Positions 40,238 to 46,099 of a DNA stretch of 64,000 nucleotides are shown here, piece after piece. Source of the DNA: Rhizodiscina lignyota. Its lineage: Eukaryota. The stretch lies in assembly GCA_010015805.1 (NCBI GenBank), contig ML978134.1, forward strand, positions 124,001 to 188,000, read 5' to 3'. The notes beneath the pieces are model-generated. The model worked only from the letters and a program-made list of their open reading frames with translations, was not told the origin of the DNA and did no database searches. Positions within the stretch are counted from its first letter, which is position 1, and every line of letters starts with the position of its first letter. The translations under genes and the position numbers were made by a program.

Positions 40238-41573
40238 CTATTCATTCCATAGCACTCTTGCCACGCTTCCGCCGTCGCTCATTGTAACATTAGTCGTCCC
40301 TGTCGCTATAGCTGTTTTCCCAATTTCCCCTGTACTAGAATCTCGTTTAAACACTCTAACATTTCCAGAGTATTGATTTGCAACAGCTAGCAAGCTGCCC
40401 TCCTTCGTTATCGCAAAGTTTCGCGGCCAGGCGCCTCCGGAGGGAGCCATTCCGATTAGAGATAGAGCGCCAGTATTCAGATCCACAGTGTAAGAAATAA
40501 GAGTGTCTGACGACTGGCCATCATATATACTGCGAGAATCGGTCCTTGTACTGAGAACGATCGCGTTGGAGATGGAGATGCGATCTCTGCCGGTATGACA
40601 AGCCCACGTGGATCCTGGGGTCCGCCGTCGCCAAAACCAGTCTGATATGTCGAGTCGTTGTAGAATTGTTGGAATCCGATGGTCTCATTTGGGTGGTACA
40701 GCACTTCGAAGCCGTGAAGCGAGTTTGTGAGCTCGCCAAGCACGTAAATGAAAGTCTTCTCCTGCCCTTTCACAAAAGCGCAGTGCCGAGGACCATTGCC
40801 AGGGGCGACAGAGTGAGGATCAAGCTCAAGGAGGCGATTATCCCAGCCGATGCGAAACGAGCGTATGGCATCCGCACCACGGTCCATCAGCACGACGTAC
40901 TTTCCGGTAGGGTCAAGGAAAATACCATGCGGATATGACTGGCTCTGCAGGGTGAAGTTCAGAACGGGCGACGGTCCTGGCTCTGAGATGTGATAGTGGA
41001 AAGTCTGCAGTCTAATCAGAGACGATTCATTTGTTGTATCCCAAACGGATGCTCCGCCGCCAGCATAGTGCGCCAAACCGAGTCTGTTTGGTGCGATGAT
41101 CGTGCCGTGAACCGGGCCATAATCTGTCGTGACATTGTTCAGGAGTGAGGGTTCTGAATAGCTTTGGCTGGTGCTGTCTATTGACCAAGACGATAAAGAG
41201 CCCGAATTTGGCAGAGTCTTGAGGCATTCAGAATCAGGCACGTCCCAAGTTTTCTGTATGCGCCACTCACGTAAGCCTCGTTCAAACAATAGAGAGTGTT
41301 TGTGCTCTTGTCCAATTCAAGCCAGCCAGGGTTCCAGCCACAATCGGCTGTTTGCCAAATAGTATTAAGAGAATAGTTACTTCCGGATTTAACTAGTGCA
41401 AGGTGATAAATAGGAGAGGCGTAGCTTGCAACCCAAAGACTTGGAAGCGAAGCATTATGCAGTGCCATGTTTGTGCTAAACAGGCTTGCTATTGGGAAGG
41501 ATGATAGCGACTGAAGCATGCCCGAGGTATTGAAATTGAAGGAGAAGGTGTCTTTCAAATATGAGAAATCCAT
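40238..41573 (-). pseudogene. Lactonase family 7-bladed beta-propeller (6-phosphogluconolactonase/muconate-lactonising-like) with an apparent frameshift at ~40562-40582
   Basis: QSYPHGIFLDPTG, DRGAD, GNGPRH, LGELTN, PAEIA, then WPRNFAI and AVANQ in a different frame. One normal intron near 41270-41218. Confidence 0.75.
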
Positions 41574-42396
41574 CGTGACATTGAAAGTCTCCAGATCCGG
41601 GCGTCGTATGCTTATGACAAGGCAAGAGTGGATCTTTTCGAGGACAAATAGCTTGGCGGCTTCAGAGGGTGAATTATATCCGAAGTGCTAGTGGACATGT
41701 CTCTCTACACTCTGTGTTGAAAGGAAATTCAATAACTTCTCACACATGAACGGTTGTGCAGTCGATGTGGTAGAGCCGTCGGCTAGTTTATTCCGGAAAC
41801 AGTTTCGTTAGTGCTGATCCAAGAAGTTGGAACCCATCGAAGTAGGTATTGATAGCTGTTCAGGCGGATCTTGTCGATAGCCGCAGAGCGGGACGAAAGT
41901 TTGAACGAGAAGTTCGAGTAACAGTAACCCGATTCGCCGACAGTTCAAAATATTCGAAATTACTACTCCATACTTGAGGTTCATAATCCTATGCTGCCTC
42001 CTCATATTTGCCTGGGGCACTCCAAGAGAATTGCATCGGCGGCGACTGTATATACGCACCCCCAACCTTCAGTATTAACCCACTTTCAGGAGTTAGTTGT
42101 GTTGGAAGTGAAACTGAGTTGTCTTCCTCACAGTGAACGTTTTCCTCCCTGTAAACTCCGTCGCCCAACAGCGCAGCGAACAGCGTTGACAATTTGACAT
42201 CGTGGAAGAGCGTACGCTTGGCATTTATATCAACATATCTGAGCTATTCGCATGTGGAAAAGATGCCTGAATGTGTTTGTATATGCAATTGTATATAACT
42301 CATAACAGGTACCCCTGTCGTGCACCGGGTCGCGTCGATCCTGAAAGAAGTAGGTCCCAAGTGGGTTATATTGCGTTAAAGTTAAAAAGTCTCTCT

Positions 42397-44406
42397 CTAA
42401 AATCTCTGCCAGGCTCTCTCCGTAGCTCTATCATCTCTTGAAAACTCAGCTCTTACTCTACGCTTCATTTCTTTAGGATCGAATCTCTCAGGTTCATGCT
42501 CAGGCTGGAGCTGGTCCTCAGGTTCACGGTCAACGCCAATATTTGCCAAAATAGTTAAACGGTAATCTCTGGACGCAGCGTCGGAAAGATCCTCTGAAGT
42601 TACGAGACTAGCAGAGACTGCGCCAAGCTGATTAGCCATGTCCTGCAATGAATCTTCCAAGGGAACAACATAGCCGTCTCCAAAAGCATCGACGGCTATG
42701 AGATGTCCATATACGCGTCCATCGGTGGCGTCTACGATCCACGAGCCTGAGTCTCCAGGAAGAAGAGCTATACCGATTTGATTAGCGACGGCGTACAGTG
42801 GTGACAATAATAAATATACACGTACCTTGATGAGTTTCACGAAGCCTCAGGCCATGTGTCTTAATTGACGGTTTGTTGAATGAAGTTGCAAAGCTCGAGT
42901 TATGACAGACAAGTTGTCCAGGAAGAGCGCCTCTAGATGCCGTAAGGACGTAGACTACATACTCCTCATCTACATTGGTCGATCCCATTTCAGTCAATTC
43001 AAAAGCTTGCTTATGCGGTGCCCCATGACTGTTAAACCAGTTCTAGAAAGAGTTAACCAGAGCAGAACTACTTCCATTCCTAAGGCACATACACTTATTG
43101 TGTCCAACGGCAGTCCAGTGATGCGCGCAATATCCATTCTTTGCCCATCACTCGGTTCTGGTTGGATTCGGTGCCAACCCTCAAGAAACTCGCGTTGATT
43201 CTTAGTTAGGCCAGTCCTGTGTGTCAGTGAGTGTGTCATGGCCTTGATATGCCTATCACCGACCGTCCATCTGTTTCTGCCCACCTTCAACAGACGCGCT
43301 AAGTACTTTGGGCTATCTACAAGTGCCCAATCGAAATCGGCTCTTTCATTGAGAGAATCGGCTTCAGCTGAAGAAGCAAACAACGATCCAATCTCTTCAT
43401 GTTTGTGCATGCAGCATCGCTGTTGCTCAACCGACTCCTCCGGATCGGTTTCTAATAATGCGAGCTTAACATTTGGTAATGCTTCTTGATCGAGTTCCAC
43501 GGATGTGATGCTCCCATCGTCGCTAAGAGCTTCCTTATGGAAATCGTCGATCTCCATGCCGCTATCAATACCGGATTCATCATCATCATCTGTTGACGTA
43601 GTAGAAGAAGTCTGGGTCCATTGACAGATGTGATTTGCAGTAAATGCAAAAAGACGGAAGTTGTCGTCTGACCACGTAACTTTTACTGGACTACTGAGAG
43701 TACCCCTTGGAGGCCCGGCCATCTCTTGTGGTGCTCCGGAGTCTAGTACACGAATTGGGAGGCAAATCTGGCTCATGTATCCAATATTCGATGGTTGATG
43801 CGCGAGCTCGCAGTCACAGCTGAGAGTTATGACCAGTTCTCCCGCGAGCAAGTTTGGAGGCAACTCGCTCACCAAGATCTTAAAAGAAGGTCTGTCGGCA
43901 TGGTCCGCGCTCGAGTATTCCTCTCTGACGACGGACTGGTTGAAGAACTGTCGTACTCGTTTGCACAAATGTTTGCTGCAGAATACTACCACGTACGGAG
44001 TGGCAGTTTCATAATTTTCTCCAAGCATCTTTAGTTTTACGGAGAGAGGCCCGTGTTGACCCTTGACTACCAACAAATGCCTGTGGAAATCATCTTTGAA
44101 TAATTCTTGTAGATCGTTGAAGCGATTCCGGATTGCATCGGGGATGTGGATATCGAACTGTTTCAAGTTCACGGGTTTCGGTCGTGAGAATCTTCTTTTC
44201 CCAACTTGTTCACCCTCGATAGTCGTGGATCGTCGCTTCAGGAGAGTGTCTCGTTTGGCACTGCTCGTCACAGAAGAGTAGCCAGAATCAGCGAACTCGG
44301 CTGATTTCTCTAAATCGAGCTGAGAACAGCCAGCAGGCTCAAATGGGTGAACCTTCTGTGATAATGAGCCTTCAAGTTCTAGATTAGAGACAGTTCGAGA
44401 CGCCAT
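42397..44406 (-). CDS. Trypsin-fold serine protease-like protein (~630 aa) with an inserted degenerate homeodomain; at least 3 exons
   Basis: FTANHI (His codon 43630-43632), DFDWALV (Asp 43330-43332), PGDSGSWIVD (Ser 42748-42750), VYGHLIA. Introns 43092-43043 (GTATGT..TTAAC..TAG) and 42825-42768 (GTACGT..CTAAT..TAG) join three ORF fragments in frame. Confidence 0.85.
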
Positions 44407-44911
44407 GTTTGTGCGCGTGGTGATCACTGGTGGATAACGACAGCCCCATTCGAAGACTCCATATCGTGTACCGTAATCATTATCTCGCTGTCTGGGCGAG
44501 CACGTCGCACACCTTGAAGCTGCTCAAGGTAATATAATGATTGCGTAGGCTCATGTATCGAGGCATGCACCTGACCTCATCGTATAAAACGTTGAGGGCG
44601 GGGCCTGGAATGGGGCGAGGTGCATCACGGCGCTTGCTAAACTGGGCAATGCATACGTTAACGAATTAGGGGCTGCCCTCCCTTGCAGAGTTGAGATAAA
44701 TGGTCGCGTGAACTCTGCATTTCCCAGCCTTACCTATGTAGCCCGACCGTCACACGCCCACTCTGCGGATCTGTTATTAACGTTATGATTGGCCCCATCT
44801 CATTATTCAGGCCATTCAGTTGCTGAAGCCTGTTCTCCCAGTACACTCTTCGCTGTTCAATGGGCCTATGCAGTTGACTTCTTGCATCAGCATACTACTG
44901 TCCAGGTCACT

Positions 44912-46099
44912 ATGGTAGATTCTAACATATATCCGCATTTCCCGTTATCGAGGGTTAGCAAATCAGAGCTTCGACGTCTATGTAGAACTTTGTGGTCGTG
45001 GGAGTTTTGCTCCATATGCGAGAAGCAGAGCGCGAGATGTCCTTCGAAGGACTGTGCATCTCATCAAGAAAAGCGCCTCAATCGGTTCCTTGACTATTAC
45101 AAACGAATATGCGCGACGTATGAGCCCTGCATTGAAGATGGAGCGCGTCCAATTCTGCGTACACACGAAGACCTCTGCAGCCTGATCAAAGCGATTCGAG
45201 AAGGCTCAAATGTTCCACGGTCGGAACTCAACAGCCTCACCCTGATCATGAGCTCGACATCGCCAGATAGAGAAAAGAATATAGCTATTAGTATGGCGGT
45301 GGATGTATTGACGATGTTTGGCTGTGGCTCTGATCAAGGAAACCCGGCTTTGCTAGAGCAGGGTCTCAACAACGCTCCGTGGAATCCGGAAGAGAGCCTG
45401 CACCAATTTGTTCGAAACTCTTTCACGGAGATGAACCATCCAGCTTTCGAGGATACCAGTTCCACATCTTACCACGAGGTGTGTAGGGCCCTCGTAGCTC
45501 GGAAGCTCTCCAAGCATGCAGGCCTGTCTTTCAAGGCAACAGAAAATCTACGACACCATTTGCGCCTGGATAGGAAGGAGGGACATATACAGATATTCCA
45601 TTATACTTCATTCATAAAGGAGCATCTTCGCTGTACACGAGACTGCATCGACTCTACCACCGACGGCTCAATGTGTTTTCCTAACGGTGTTCTGCCTCGC
45701 CAGCTGTGCCTTGAAGTCCTCGACTCAATCCAGAAGGTCCTCTTCCCATTGACAGACAAGAAGTCGCGCGCCTTACTCCTATCCTTAGTCTCATCTGAAG
45801 GGTTTGACCCCGACACACTTCGCTTCGAGTCAACAAGCATCCGCCGACCAGACGAGAAGGACATCCCATTCCTCTTCCTCGGAGATAGACTTGCAAACTT
45901 ATATGCCGAGCTAGAGAACCCTCAGCCACGTAACTGGCTCGATAAGTGGCTGCAGCGGAAGAGTAATGCTCGGCATGTGATGTTGACTACGCTGGTCGGA
46001 GTTCTAATCGCTGTTCTCTTGGGTATTTGTGGGCTGGCGTTGGCTGGCTTCCAGGCTTGGATTTCCTGGCAACAGTGGAAGCATCCGGTGAGCAACTAG
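44912..46099 (+). CDS. Uncharacterised 395-aa protein with N-terminal C-x2-C-x6-C-x4-C cluster and C-terminal membrane segment; single exon
   Basis: Long ORF; TENLRHHLRLD, SIQKVLFP, FLGDRLANLYAELENPQP, then ~30 hydrophobic residues (HVMLTTLVGVLIAVLLGICGLALAGFQAWISW). Confidence 0.85.
   Translation: MVDSNIYPHFPLSRVSKSELRRLCRTLWSWEFCSICEKQSARCPSKDCASHQEKRLNRFLDYYKRICATYEPCIEDGARPILRTHEDLCSLIKAIREGSNVPRSELNSLTLIMSSTSPDREKNIAISMAVDVLTMFGCGSDQGNPALLEQGLNNAPWNPEESLHQFVRNSFTEMNHPAFEDTSSTSYHEVCRALVARKLSKHAGLSFKATENLRHHLRLDRKEGHIQIFHYTSFIKEHLRCTRDCIDSTTDGSMCFPNGVLPRQLCLEVLDSIQKVLFPLTDKKSRALLLSLVSSEGFDPDTLRFESTSIRRPDEKDIPFLFLGDRLANLYAELENPQPRNWLDKWLQRKSNARHVMLTTLVGVLIAVLLGICGLALAGFQAWISWQQWKHPVSN

What the first reader, a model, noticed from the sequence alone, without database searches (positions are those of the whole stretch)
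43022..43218. Degenerate homeodomain inserted inside the protease catalytic domain, completed only by splicing
Seen: removing the 50-nt intron 43092-43043 gives RTGLTKNQREFLEGWHRIQPEPSDGQRMDIARITGLPLDTIS|NWFNSHG. This aligns without gaps to homeodomain positions 5-53 (R5, T6, T9, Q12, L16, E17, P26, R31, I34, A35, G39, L40, I45, W48, F49). The DNA-contacting N51 and R53 are replaced by S and G, and F20 by H. It lies between the catalytic Asp (DWAL) and Ser (GDSGS). A possible in-frame 90-nt intron immediately upstream (GTACTT..CTGAC..CAG ending at 43217) hints at exon capture. Inference: a fold-retaining but DNA-binding-deficient homeodomain could act as an integrated decoy or sensor gating the protease, by analogy to integrated domains in plant NLRs. 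The ORF track does not show this.
Basis: partly seen in the sequence, partly recalled or inferred. Interest (0 to 1): 0.85.

Follow-up and report, generated by a model that had tools for sequence, protein, structure and literature searches.

The report
Worn homeodomain inserted in fungal protease
A wood-dwelling fungus carries a protease gene with a worn-down copy of a DNA-binding homeodomain inserted into the middle of its catalytic domain; the insertion is real and so far unique, but its function is unknown.

Summary
A minus-strand gene (44406-41989) matches the public model KAF2094403.1 of Rhizodiscina lignyota (689 aa). That model removes the 50-nt intron 43092-43043, joining ...LPLDTIS to NWFNSHG.

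The spliced protein hits Pfam Homeodomain above its curated cut-off (28.4 vs 22.9 bits, residues 396-444, no gaps). Exon 1 alone scores 17.5. HD positions 51 and 53 are Ser and Gly, and position 20 is His.

The host protein belongs to a large Pezizomycotina family with no Pfam model (856 representatives at E<=1e-3). The family has conserved TAGH / DWAL / GDSGS motifs and a Ser/Cys swap at the nucleophile. Its nearest structural neighbours are trypsin-like. The Asp-to-nucleophile distance is 158 residues here, against a family median of 94.5 and a maximum of 126. The roughly 63-residue insert sits in the variable linker between the two barrels, and none of 149 homologues has it.

Not shown:
- No RNA run was available, so splicing is untested.
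- The decoy or gating role is untested.
- The extra 90-nt intron has no support.

In relatives, 19 of 149 carry extra domains, and 8 of these are transcription-factor types. A DSGYxSxxxSP motif is family-wide.

Verdict: a real, novel domain architecture, found in one species only, with function open.

The parts
41989..44406 (-). Whole coding region of the gene (public model KAF2094403.1, 689 aa): four exons and three introns.
   Evidence: tblastn of the public protein on the window gives 44406-43093, 43057-42824, 42768-42457 and 42231-41992.
43093..44406 (-). Exon 1 (residues 1-438): DSGYSS motif, conserved N-domain, protease barrel 1 with H259 and D359, and homeodomain positions 1-46.
   Evidence: Translation. 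Family alignment.
43043..43092 (-). Intron 1, 50 nt, phase 0, between homeodomain positions 46 and 47. GTATGT donor, TTAAC branch-like site, pyrimidine tail, TAG acceptor. If retained, the frame runs into a stop at 42994.
   Evidence: ORF 42994..44523 ends in ...ISKLLN*. It is used in the public model. Of 55 frame-restoring GT..AG pairs, it is the only one with a consensus donor, a branch site and typical length. No RNA evidence.
42826..43042 (-). Exon 2 (residues 439-511, last codon split): NWFNSHG (end of the homeodomain), then the start of protease barrel 2.
42768..42825 (-). Intron 2, 58 nt, GTACGT...CTAAT...TAG, phase 1.
42457..42767 (-). Exon 3: LLPGDSGSWIVD... carries the nucleophile S517 (42750-42748) and the VYGHLIA strand.
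42217..42456 (-). Intron 3 of the public model (240 nt, GTAAGA...AG). Unverified. If not spliced, the protein ends 19 residues later at the stop at 42399-42397.
   Evidence: No family homology beyond about residue 615.
41989..42216 (-). Exon 4 of the public model (residues 614-689 plus stop). No homologue and no Pfam family.
43001..43230 (-). Homeodomain-derived module, HD positions 1-60 = residues 393-452, interrupted by intron 1. The Pfam match is residues 396-444 (43221-43093 plus 43042-43025).
43022..43030 (-). Codons for S443-H444-G445, standing at HD positions 51-53 where Asn-Arg-Arg is usual. Canonical DNA contacts are lost.
   Evidence: HESX1, LHX4 and SIX1 alignments. The role of N51 and R53 is established knowledge, recalled.
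43630..43632 (-). Codon of H259 (TANH; family consensus TAGH).
43330..43332 (-). Codon of D359 (DWAL; invariant in A2).
42748..42750 (-). Codon of S517 (GDSGS). This position is Ser in 78 and Cys in 21 of the 99 aligned family members.
44272..44289 (-). DSGYSS (residues 40-45), this protein's copy of the family-wide DSGYx[ST] motif.
43217..43306 (-). Present as sequence only and judged not to be an intron.
   Evidence: Not spliced in the public model. It covers the segment that aligns to the family linker start.

Best explanation
SHOWN. The gene encodes a member of a large, unnamed Pezizomycotina family. The family has a short Ser-rich DSGYxS motif, a conserved N-domain of about 150-190 residues, and a chymotrypsin-fold (PA-clan-like) His/Asp/Ser-or-Cys protease domain. 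In this one protein a module of about 63 residues, derived from a homeodomain, is inserted in the variable linker that joins the two beta-barrels. It begins about 20 residues after the catalytic Asp strand. The module is split by a 50-nt intron at HD position 46/47. Only the spliced mRNA encodes both helix 3 (WF) and the downstream barrel carrying the Ser nucleophile. The catalytic triad and the GDSGS motif are intact. The homeodomain keeps its fold-determining residues but has lost N51 and R53, and it has Gly53 and Pro55 in helix 3.

INFERRED. The protease works as in its relatives. The homeodomain no longer reads DNA in the canonical way. It is displayed on the surface as an appendage. I think its most likely role is a docking or targeting exosite for a protein partner or for non-specific nucleic acid. 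This would be one more case of this family's repeated capture of transcription-factor-type domains. I do not think it is a lid on the active site.

The structural half of this statement is about 0.9 likely. The functional half is about 0.35 likely.
For: - Gene model.
- Homeodomain: Pfam 28.4 bits against a cut-off of 22.9, no gaps. 27 of 28 PDB hits are homeodomains. In the Atlas model 10 of 10 structural neighbours are homeodomain clusters, TM 0.61-0.66.
- Dependence on splicing: 17.5 bits for exon 1 alone, 28.4 spliced. The unspliced frame stops at 42994.
- Family size: 856 representatives at E<=1e-3 and 335 at <=1e-10.
- Family motifs: consensus TAGH / DWAL / GDSGSWVVD..VYGHVVA. 99 of 150 have H, D and a nucleophile aligned, 78 Ser and 21 Cys.
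- Protease fold: Trypsin_2 is the only recurrent Pfam family (4 of 69 members, best E 0.0056). The matches span profile positions 13-143 of 144 from the His to the Ser region. Atlas structural neighbours of residues 225-575 include Trypsin, Trypsin_2, Pro_Al_protease and Nal1_C clusters, TM 0.40-0.56 over 163-227 residues.
- Insertion: no homologue's aligned stretch covers residues 399-436, 0 of 149. Asp-to-nucleophile distance is 156 against median 92 and maximum 124, n=84, and 158 against median 94.5 and maximum 126, n=98. The family median equals the Asp102-Ser195 spacing of chymotrypsin (recalled numbering). The insert falls where family column occupancy drops to near zero. The five nearest tree neighbours also lack it.
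- Not an assembly chimera: an independent contig of a DNA run covers 42000-44600 with no differences.
- Family habit of domain capture: 19 of 149 homologues carry an extra Pfam domain. Eight are transcription-factor types (Fungal_trans_2, AreA region, C2H2, Myb x2, Zn_clus, NDT80, HLH). They are scattered over the tree.
- Precedent for a homeodomain that does not bind DNA and acts through protein contacts: HOPX (abstracts of PMC6997107 and PMC9179269 in the listing).
Against: - No RNA evidence for any junction. Only a DNA run was found.
- No orthologue carries the insert, so there is no test for selective constraint.
- The query keeps only 50 of 63 well-conserved family columns (79% against a median of 87%, 10th lowest of 85). 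It has lost several glycines near the His and the linker Asn, and it sits on a long branch. Relaxed constraint or an inactive protease is therefore possible.
- The protease fold is not proven. There is no Pfam protease hit for the query at E<=10. The PDB profile search found nothing. hhalign against DegP/DegQ/DegS was not significant (probability 0.18, E 0.33), although the single alignment puts GDSGS on GNSGG. The Atlas model is low-confidence (mean pLDDT 0.56), and its scores are leads only.
- Some 'fusions' in relatives may be merged gene models, for example the MFS transporter.
- The docking role rests on analogy alone.
Confidence: 0.45

Rival explanations
1. Neutral passenger. The homeodomain fragment was captured by a genomic accident into a loop that tolerates insertions. 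It is simply carried along and decaying, with no function. The protease works, or decays, independently of it.
For: - Found in one species only: 0 of 149 homologues have it.
- The linker is the most variable part of the domain.
- DNA-contact residues are lost, and helix 3 is broken by Gly and Pro.
- The host protein is itself among the more divergent members, 79% against a median of 87% of conserved columns.
- The family accretes unrelated domains freely.
Against: - The fold signature still passes Pfam's cut-off, although no donor close enough to share 5-residue words exists in 5.8 billion clusters. The capture is therefore not very recent, yet the core has not eroded.
- All exons are open, the splice signals are consensus and the triad is intact.
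Confidence: 0.3
2. One reading: an integrated decoy or sensor. The homeodomain mimics a transcription factor that some foreign or endogenous factor targets, and binding to it switches the protease on or off.
For: - The family contains NLR-type architectures: NACHT+WD40 in P0141, TPR in P0148, Ank in P0149.
- It contains many captured transcription-factor domains.
- Loss of DNA-contact residues with the fold retained is what a bait would look like.
Against: - This protein has no NACHT, NB-ARC or repeat sensor domain.
- No other member has any domain at this position. The largest other Asp-to-nucleophile distance is 126.
- The linker is not adjacent in sequence to a catalytic motif.
- The neighbouring genes are ordinary: lactonase, TrkH, BCS1, helicase.
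- No evidence of diversifying selection can be obtained.
Confidence: 0.1
3. Not a working gene. The junction is not used, the model is a prediction artefact, or the locus is a decaying pseudogene whose open frames are residual.
For: - No RNA evidence.
- The 3' end of the model is unsupported: a 240-nt intron, and an exon 4 with no homologue.
- The host is divergent on a long branch.
- 55 alternative GT..AG pairs would also keep the frame open.
Against: - Homology to the family continues on both sides of intron 1, in the two frames that only a splice or a frameshift can join.
- The chosen intron alone has a consensus donor, a branch site and a typical length.
- There is no stop in 1.9 kb of exons, and the triad is intact.
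- Splicing raises the homeodomain score by about 11 bits.
Confidence: 0.1
4. Still a DNA-binding or latent transcription-factor module. The homeodomain tethers the protease to chromatin, or is released by self-cleavage to act as a transcription factor, as the C-terminal DNA-binding domains of relatives might be.
For: - Eight of 19 domain-bearing relatives carry transcription-factor domains. The Myb fusion is shared by sister representatives P0134 and P0100.
- R5, R31, W48 and F49 are retained.
- Known trypsin-fold proteases act on transcription factors: Ssy5 on Stp1/Stp2 (PMC3145550 abstract and section 12; PMC6761765 abstract) and NAL1 on FZP (PMC12012508 abstract).
Against: - N51 and R53 are replaced, and there is Gly53/Pro55 in the recognition helix.
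- The N-terminal arm is not basic (HSLTHRTG).
- The module is embedded inside the catalytic domain, so releasing it would cut the protease in two.
Confidence: 0.05

Closest known systems
Homeodomain (Pfam PF00046), typical 60-residue class
   Same: Gapless match to profile positions 3-51, above the curated cut-off. R5, L16, R31, I34, A35, L40, I45, W48 and F49 are kept. Three-helix structural match in the Atlas model.
   Different: N51 is Ser, R52 is His, R53 is Gly, there is Pro at 55, and F20 is His with Trp at 19, as in the SIX1 alignment. The N-terminal arm is not basic. It is embedded inside an enzyme domain rather than in a transcription factor.
HOPX, the homeodomain-only protein
   Same: A homeodomain fold that lacks residues needed for DNA binding and acts through protein partners (abstracts of PMC6997107, PMC9179269 and PMC12608687, seen in the listing). 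It is a precedent for a repurposed homeodomain.
   Different: HOPX is a free-standing animal protein. Here the module is an internal insert in a fungal protease-like protein. No homology beyond the shared fold was tested.
PA-clan serine proteases of the Trypsin_2 / HtrA kind (PF13365)
   Same: His, Asp, Ser in the same order. The family's median Asp-to-Ser spacing is 94.5, against Asp102-Ser195 in chymotrypsin (recalled numbering). A GDSGS-type nucleophile motif is followed by a G-H/I strand. There are sub-threshold Trypsin_2 matches in 4 of 69 members, and the structural neighbours are trypsin-like.
   Different: No member reaches the Pfam cut-off, and hhalign against DegP/DegQ/DegS was not significant. 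There is an acidic stretch of about 45 extra residues between His and Asp (median 90). 21 of 99 members have Cys as nucleophile. The proteins are intracellular-looking, with a large conserved N-domain and no PDZ.
Ssy5 (Peptidase_S64), the yeast SPS-sensor signalling protease
   Same: Works-like lead. Ssy5 is an intracellular chymotrypsin-type protease with a large N-terminal prodomain that carries a Ser-rich phosphodegron near its N-terminus. It acts on latent transcription factors (PMC3145550 abstract and section 12; PMC6761765 abstract). The family here has a Ser-rich DSGYxSxxxSP motif at residues ~30-90, a conserved N-domain and then the protease. A cluster with 15% Peptidase_S64 members appears among the Atlas feature neighbours at score 0.85, which is a lead only.
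   Different: No Pfam Peptidase_S64 match for the query at E<=10, and it is not among the families listed for 69 members. The motif differs from Ssy5's. Autoprocessing and degradation are untested.
NAL1 (Nal1_C, PF25819), a plant trypsin-like protease
   Same: Nal1_C clusters are among the nearest structural and feature neighbours of residues 225-575. NAL1 proteolyses a transcription factor, FZP (PMC12012508 abstract).
   Different: No Pfam Nal1_C hit. Different kingdom. Hexameric cage assembly not tested.
Integrated domains of plant NLR immune receptors
   Same: A transcription-factor-type domain placed in a non-transcription-factor host protein. One relative of this family is an NACHT-WD40 protein (P0141).
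   Different: The query has no nucleotide-binding or repeat domain. The insert is inside a catalytic domain. No evidence of bait function.

Membership tests
Homeodomain (PF00046) | Profile HMM score at or above the curated gathering cut-off | tested here: met
   28.4 bits against 22.9, E 1.5e-6, residues 396-444 on profile positions 3-51 of 57. This holds only for the spliced protein. Exon 1 alone scores 17.5.
Homeodomain (PF00046) | Three-helix homeodomain fold | tested here: inconclusive
   In the ESM Atlas's own model, residues 389-460 match 10 of 10 homeodomain clusters at TM 0.61-0.66. However, the model's mean pLDDT is 0.56 and short-stretch TM scores are weak evidence.
Homeodomain (PF00046) | Conserved hydrophobic core (L16, F20, L/I34, L40, V/I45, W48, F49) | tested here: met
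   6 of 7 are kept. Position 20 is His, with Trp at 19 (alignments).
Homeodomain (PF00046) | Recognition-helix DNA contacts Asn51 and Arg53 | tested here: not met
   WFNSHG in place of WFQNRR, so Ser at 51 and Gly at 53.
Homeodomain (PF00046) | Sequence-specific DNA binding | not testable with these tools
   Needs EMSA or SELEX on the isolated insert.
PA-clan (chymotrypsin-fold) Ser/Cys protease | His, Asp and nucleophile in that order within conserved motifs | tested here: met
   TANH (H259), DWAL (D359), GDSGS (S517). H, D and S/C are aligned in 99 of 150 family representatives.
PA-clan (chymotrypsin-fold) Ser/Cys protease | Significant match to a curated PA-clan model (Trypsin, Trypsin_2, Peptidase_S64, Nal1_C) | tested here: not met
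   No such hit for the query at E<=10. 4 of 69 members hit Trypsin_2, but all are below the cut-off of 27.6 (best 17.9 bits, E 0.0056). hhalign against DegP/Q/S gave E 0.33. The PDB profile search found nothing.
PA-clan (chymotrypsin-fold) Ser/Cys protease | Double beta-barrel fold with the triad at the interface | tested here: inconclusive
   Atlas-model neighbours of residues 225-575 include four Trypsin/Trypsin_2/Pro_Al_protease rows and two Nal1_C rows, TM 0.40-0.56, 163-227 residues aligned. No model of my own could be made.
PA-clan (chymotrypsin-fold) Ser/Cys protease | Peptidase activity | not testable with these tools
   Needs expression of wild type and an S517A mutant with an activity assay.
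Ssy5-type signalling protease (Peptidase_S64) | Match to PF08192 | tested here: not met
   No hit. The resemblance is in architecture only.
Ssy5-type signalling protease (Peptidase_S64) | Autoprocessed inhibitory prodomain with a phosphodegron | not testable with these tools
   A DSGYxS motif is present. Processing and degradation were not assayed.
NLR with integrated domain | NACHT or NB-ARC nucleotide-binding domain plus repeat sensor in the same protein | tested here: not met
   The only Pfam hits on the query are Homeodomain and Homeobox_KN.

The most novel reading that the evidence does not exclude
The host family is a previously undescribed class of Ssy5-like, degron-controlled intracellular signalling proteases of Pezizomycotina. 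These proteases are repeatedly hard-wired to transcription-factor domains, either as cis-substrates or as baits. In this protein a captured homeodomain has been stripped of DNA reading and built into the protease core, where it acts as a docking or sensing element for a homeodomain partner. Partner binding at the inter-barrel linker would then control proteolysis.
Probability: 0.12. Interest if true: 0.8.

Novelty: new variant of a known kind. Interest (0 to 1): 0.45.

Why it matters
A homeodomain placed inside an enzyme's catalytic domain is an architecture I could not find described. Full-text searches returned nothing relevant, and UniRef only auto-names the protein 'Homeobox domain-containing'.

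If the insert is functional, it would be a natural example of a transcription-factor fold reused as a regulatory or targeting element of a protease. It would also be a ready-made test case for how well the inter-barrel linker of chymotrypsin-fold enzymes tolerates insertions.

The wider value may lie in the host family. It is a large fungal protease-like family with no Pfam model. It shows a Ser/Cys nucleophile swap, a conserved beta-TrCP-like DSGYxSxxxSP motif, and repeated fusions to DNA-binding domains and NLR modules. This makes a 'protease-gated transcription factor' hypothesis testable in model fungi.

As it stands, the finding rests on one species and has no expression data.

Tried and rejected
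- RNA support: the look-up of sequencing runs listed no RNA holder, only one DNA run. Laying that run showed one contig identical over 42000-44600 and no joints. The junction test could not be done.
No model of my own and no PDB fold search were possible. The ESM Atlas's stored model was used instead.
- The window's own genome is not held. Paralogous homeobox genes and the donor could therefore not be sought.
- Word-indexed protein searches returned only the protein itself. This was so with exon 1, with the homeodomain region 388-458 at E<=10 (7 candidates), and with alignment A2 (8000 candidates scored). The last is uninformative, since even alignment members were not returned.
- The metagenome scan with exon 1 gave 45 pattern matches and 0 confirmed.
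- The PDB profile search with A1 gave only a chance ribosomal hit.
- hhalign of A2 against E. coli DegP/DegQ/DegS was not significant.
- Base composition is flat across the insert. There are no flanking direct repeats or target-site duplication. There is no paralogue in the window.
- Rfam found nothing on either strand of 41500-45000. Antisense ORFs and exon 4 match no Pfam family.
- Earlier notes of this scan: none.
- The 90-nt upstream 'intron' (43306-43217) was considered and rejected. It has a weak GTACTT donor, it is not used in the public model, and it would delete HD R5 and the linker start that aligns with the family.
- A TALE-class homeodomain was considered and rejected. Homeobox_KN scores 18.3, below its cut-off of 24. 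Alignments to typical 60-residue homeodomains have no gaps, whereas PBX/Exd alignments need a 3-residue gap.
- The neighbouring genes (lactonase, TrkH, BCS1-type AAA, DEAD helicase, SDR, Bys1, and a 436-aa ORF with no family) give no functional hint.
- Haridas et al. 2020 (PMC7082219): only passages found by term search were read. Its supplementary tables were not opened. They may say whether a transcriptome existed for this species.
Full report
WHAT IS IN THE SEQUENCE

The region lies in a minus-strand gene. Reading the strand and translating the pieces gives the following:
- An ATG at 44406.
- Exon 1, 44406-43093 (438 codons), ending ...ITGLPLDTIS.
- A 50-nt intron, 43092-43043 (GTATGT...TTAAC...CTCTTTCTAG).
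- Exon 2, 43042-42826, starting NWFNSHG.
- A 58-nt intron, 42825-42768 (GTACGT...CTAAT...TAG).
- Exon 3, from 42767, starting (A)LLPGDSGSW.

A search of 5.8 billion protein clusters with exon 1 returned exactly one protein. It is the public record KAF2094403.1, 'hypothetical protein NA57DRAFT_60447' of Rhizodiscina lignyota. UniRef auto-names it 'Homeobox domain-containing protein'. The species belongs to Dothideomycetes, Aulographales.

It also uses a third intron of 240 nt (42456-42217) leading to a last exon ending at 41989. The finding's coordinates 43218-43022 are exactly R397 to G445.

IS THE JUNCTION REAL?

If intron 1 is retained, the frame runs into a stop at 42994. The product would then lack the second half of the protease domain, including the Ser.

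Family homology continues on both sides of the intron in two different frames. A splice is therefore needed somewhere in this region. An enumeration found 55 GT..AG pairs that keep the frame open. Only 43092-43043 combines a consensus fungal donor, a branch-like TTAAC, a pyrimidine tail and a typical length.

Splicing raises the homeodomain score from 17.5 bits (exon 1 alone) to 28.4 bits.

I could not test the junction in RNA. The only public run that holds the stretch is a DNA run. Its contig covers 42000-44600 with no differences. That argues against an assembly chimera but says nothing about transcripts. The genome paper says the gene models come from the JGI pipeline (PMC7082219, passages only). 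I did not open its supplements.

IS IT A HOMEODOMAIN?

Yes, by sequence.
- Pfam Homeodomain PF00046 matches residues 396-444 to profile positions 3-51 without gaps. The score is 28.4 bits against a curated cut-off of 22.9, with E 1.5e-6.
- Homeobox_KN (the TALE type) scores 18.3, below its cut-off of 24.
- Against all PDB sequences, 27 of 28 weak hits are homeodomains on residues 396-451. HESX1 and LHX4 align without gaps.

In standard numbering R397 is position 5. R5, L16, R31, I34, A35, L40, I45, W48 and F49 are present. Position 20 is His, with Trp at 19 as in the SIX1 alignment. Positions 50-53 read N-S-H-G where Q/K-N-R-R is usual, and position 55 is Pro.

The Asn51 and Arg53 contacts are missing; that these residues are the key contacts is established knowledge, recalled. 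The recognition helix is probably shortened.

In the ESM Atlas's stored model of this very protein, residues 389-460 match homeodomain clusters in 10 of 10 rows at TM 0.61-0.66. That model is of low overall confidence (pLDDT 0.56), so I count it as supporting evidence and not proof.

WHAT IS THE HOST PROTEIN?

An exhaustive phmmer search of 1.84 billion representatives found 856 relatives at E<=1e-3 and 335 at <=1e-10. The six best that I looked up are 'hypothetical' proteins of diverse Pezizomycotina. No Pfam family covers the shared part.

Alignments of 85 and 69 members (A1, A2) give the consensus ...ATLGGxIxV...LYGxTAGH...DWAL...PN...GDSGSWVVDxxTxEVYGHVVA. After aligning all 150 representatives to a family HMM, 99 have His, Asp and a nucleophile in register, with 78 Ser and 21 Cys. 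A Ser/Cys swap of this kind is typical of chymotrypsin-fold (PA-clan) proteases (recalled).

The family's median Asp-to-nucleophile distance is 94.5, which matches the Asp102-Ser195 spacing of chymotrypsin (recalled numbering).

Further evidence on the fold:
- Trypsin_2 is the only Pfam family that recurs among members. It hits 4 of 69, all below the cut-off, with a best E of 0.0056. The matches run from the His region to the Ser region (profile 13-143 of 144).
- The Atlas structural neighbours of residues 225-575 include four Trypsin/Trypsin_2/Pro_Al_protease rows and two Nal1_C rows. TM is 0.40-0.56 over 163-227 aligned residues.
- Against this, a profile search of PDB sequences found nothing. 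hhalign against E. coli DegP/DegQ/DegS was not significant (E 0.33), although its single alignment puts GDSGS on GNSGG.

I rate 'PA-clan-like protease domain' at about 0.9. Membership of any curated family was tested and not met.

IS THE HOMEODOMAIN AN INSERTION, AND IS IT UNIQUE?

Homologues align to residues ~35-375 and ~465-575. None of the 149 has an aligned stretch covering residues 399-436.

The Asp-to-nucleophile distance is 156 in the query against a median of 92 and a maximum of 124 (n=84, MAFFT). By HMM alignment it is 158 against 94.5 and 126 (n=98). The excess of about 63 residues is the size of a homeodomain.

The insert falls about 20 residues after DWAL. This is where the family's column occupancy drops to near zero, and it lies before the conserved start of the second barrel. 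That places it in the inter-barrel linker. The five nearest neighbours in a FastTree tree (99 sequences, 447 columns, midpoint root, supports not examined) also lack it.

No homologue hits Pfam Homeodomain. The thresholds were E<=1e-3 for 56 proteins and E<=1e-5 for 93. In addition, 0 of the 68 homologues in A2 hit it at E<=1.

No donor homeodomain could be found. The word-indexed search with residues 388-458 found only the protein itself among 7 candidates. There is no compositional break, no flanking repeat and no paralogue in the window.

STATE OF THE HOST

The triad and GDSGS are intact. However, the query keeps only 50 of 63 well-conserved columns (79%, against a median of 87%; 10th lowest of 85). 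It has lost glycines near the His (TLGG to TLSS, TAGH to TANH) and the linker Asn. It also sits on a long branch. An impaired enzyme cannot be excluded.

FAMILY CONTEXT

Nineteen of 149 homologues carry an additional Pfam domain above its cut-off:
- Transcription-factor types (8): Fungal_trans_2, AreA region, C2H2, Myb (two proteins), Zn_clus, NDT80, HLH.
- Others (11): DUF6594, Pkinase, NACHT+WD40, TPR, Ank, Ecl1, transglutaminase/Rad4, muHD, SH3, AAA, MFS.

Almost all of these domains lie C-terminal to the protease, and none lies inside it. The domain-bearing members are scattered over the tree.

Some fusions look inherited:
- The Myb protein P0134 has a sister, P0100, with a sub-threshold Myb match.
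- The NDT80 model recurs in two Neopestalotiopsis species.
- The Zn_clus and Fungal_trans_2 members are sisters.

Others, such as the MFS transporter, may be merged gene models.

A short motif, DSGYx[ST], usually followed by xxx(S/T)P, occurs in 123 of 150 members, against 7 expected from shuffles. There are 119 occurrences upstream of the His and 47 downstream of the nucleophile, and 41 proteins carry two or more copies. The query has DSGYSS at residues 40-45. The S-x3-S-x3-S spacing and the DSGxxS core recall beta-TrCP phosphodegrons (recalled). Four of the six papers that contain these hexapeptides are about beta-TrCP (listing only).

HOW IT MOST LIKELY WORKS

Shown: a homeodomain-derived module whose completion depends on splicing sits in the inter-barrel linker of a protease-like domain with an intact triad.

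Inferred:
- The enzyme works like its relatives.
- The module has lost canonical DNA reading.
- It is a surface appendage. I think the most likely role is docking or targeting, in line with the family's habit of acquiring transcription-factor domains. HOPX is a precedent for a DNA-blind homeodomain that works through protein contacts (abstracts).

I give the whole statement 0.45. The structural half is about 0.9 and the functional half about 0.35.

Rivals:
- A neutral, decaying passenger in a tolerant loop: 0.3.
- A non-functional or mis-modelled gene: 0.1.
- A still DNA-binding or releasable transcription-factor module: 0.05.

The decoy idea is weakened by three things. There is no NLR module in this protein. 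No domain is swapped in at this position in any relative. The genomic neighbourhood is ordinary. It is not excluded.

COMPARISON WITH KNOWN SYSTEMS

The nearest analogies for the host are Ssy5 and NAL1.
- Ssy5 has a prodomain with a Ser-rich phosphodegron. It is autoprocessed and cleaves the latent transcription factors Stp1/Stp2 (PMC3145550 abstract and section 12; PMC6761765 abstract).
- NAL1 is a trypsin-like protease that proteolyses the transcription factor FZP (PMC12012508 abstract).

Membership of either family was tested by Pfam and not met. The insert is a member of the homeodomain family by the Pfam criterion. It fails the DNA-contact criterion.

NOVELTY AND SCORE

Full-text searches found no description of a homeodomain inside a protease domain. 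They also found no description of a trypsin-like N-terminal domain in fungal NLRs: and the main text of PMC9815663 has 0 occurrences of 'trypsin'.

The homeodomain itself is already flagged by automatic annotation, but the architecture is not described. It is a new variant of known kinds, namely domain insertion, a PA-clan protease and a degenerate homeodomain. It is known from one species, with no expression or functional data. Interest: 0.45.

Noticed in passing
window 44272-44289 (-), residues 40-45 of the protein; family-wide in P0004-P0153: A conserved short motif DSGYx[ST]xxx(S/T)P occurs in 123 of 150 family representatives, against 7 expected by shuffling. There are 119 occurrences N-terminal of the His and 47 C-terminal of the nucleophile, and 41 proteins have two or more. 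The S-x3-S-x3-S spacing looks like a GSK3/beta-TrCP-type phosphodegron (recalled). An alternative is a pair of self-cleavage sites flanking the protease module.
   Followed up: partly
homologues P0005-P0153 (no window coordinates): The host family has no Pfam model. 19 of 149 homologues carry extra domains, 8 of them transcription-factor types (Fungal_trans_2, AreA region, C2H2, Myb x2, Zn_clus, NDT80, HLH). Others include Pkinase, NACHT+WD40, TPR, Ank, SH3, muHD, Ecl1, transglutaminase, AAA, DUF6594 and MFS. They are scattered over the tree. Some may be merged gene models.
   Followed up: partly
family alignment, column of S517 (window 42748-42750): The nucleophile is Ser in 78 and Cys in 21 of 99 aligned members. 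The query (Ser) sits in a mostly-Cys clade.
   Followed up: partly
homologues with one matched stretch, e.g. P0028, P0032, P0043-P0054: 39 of 150 representatives align at His and Asp but have nothing at the nucleophile column. They are typically 400-490 aa and end soon after DWAL. They are either truncated gene models (missed introns) or a short sub-family lacking the second barrel.
   Followed up: no
window 41989-42456 (-): The public model's third intron (240 nt) and last exon (76 residues) have no homologue and no Pfam match. Without that splice the protein would end 19 residues after exon 3, at the stop at 42399-42397. The 3' end of the gene is uncertain.
   Followed up: partly
P0005 (Lecanicillium saksenae, 1477 aa): The best-scoring homologue contains two copies of the family module (N-domain and nucleophile region at ~108-504 and ~1019-1314), with a Fungal_trans_2 domain (712-897) between them.
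   Followed up: no
window 44789-46099 (+): A divergently oriented 436-codon open frame lies next to the gene. Its last ~35 residues are hydrophobic. It has no Pfam match at E<=0.01.
   Followed up: partly
window 40238-41687 (-): A lactonase (7-bladed beta-propeller, PF10282) gene is split over three open frames, presumably by introns. It is an ordinary neighbour.
   Followed up: partly
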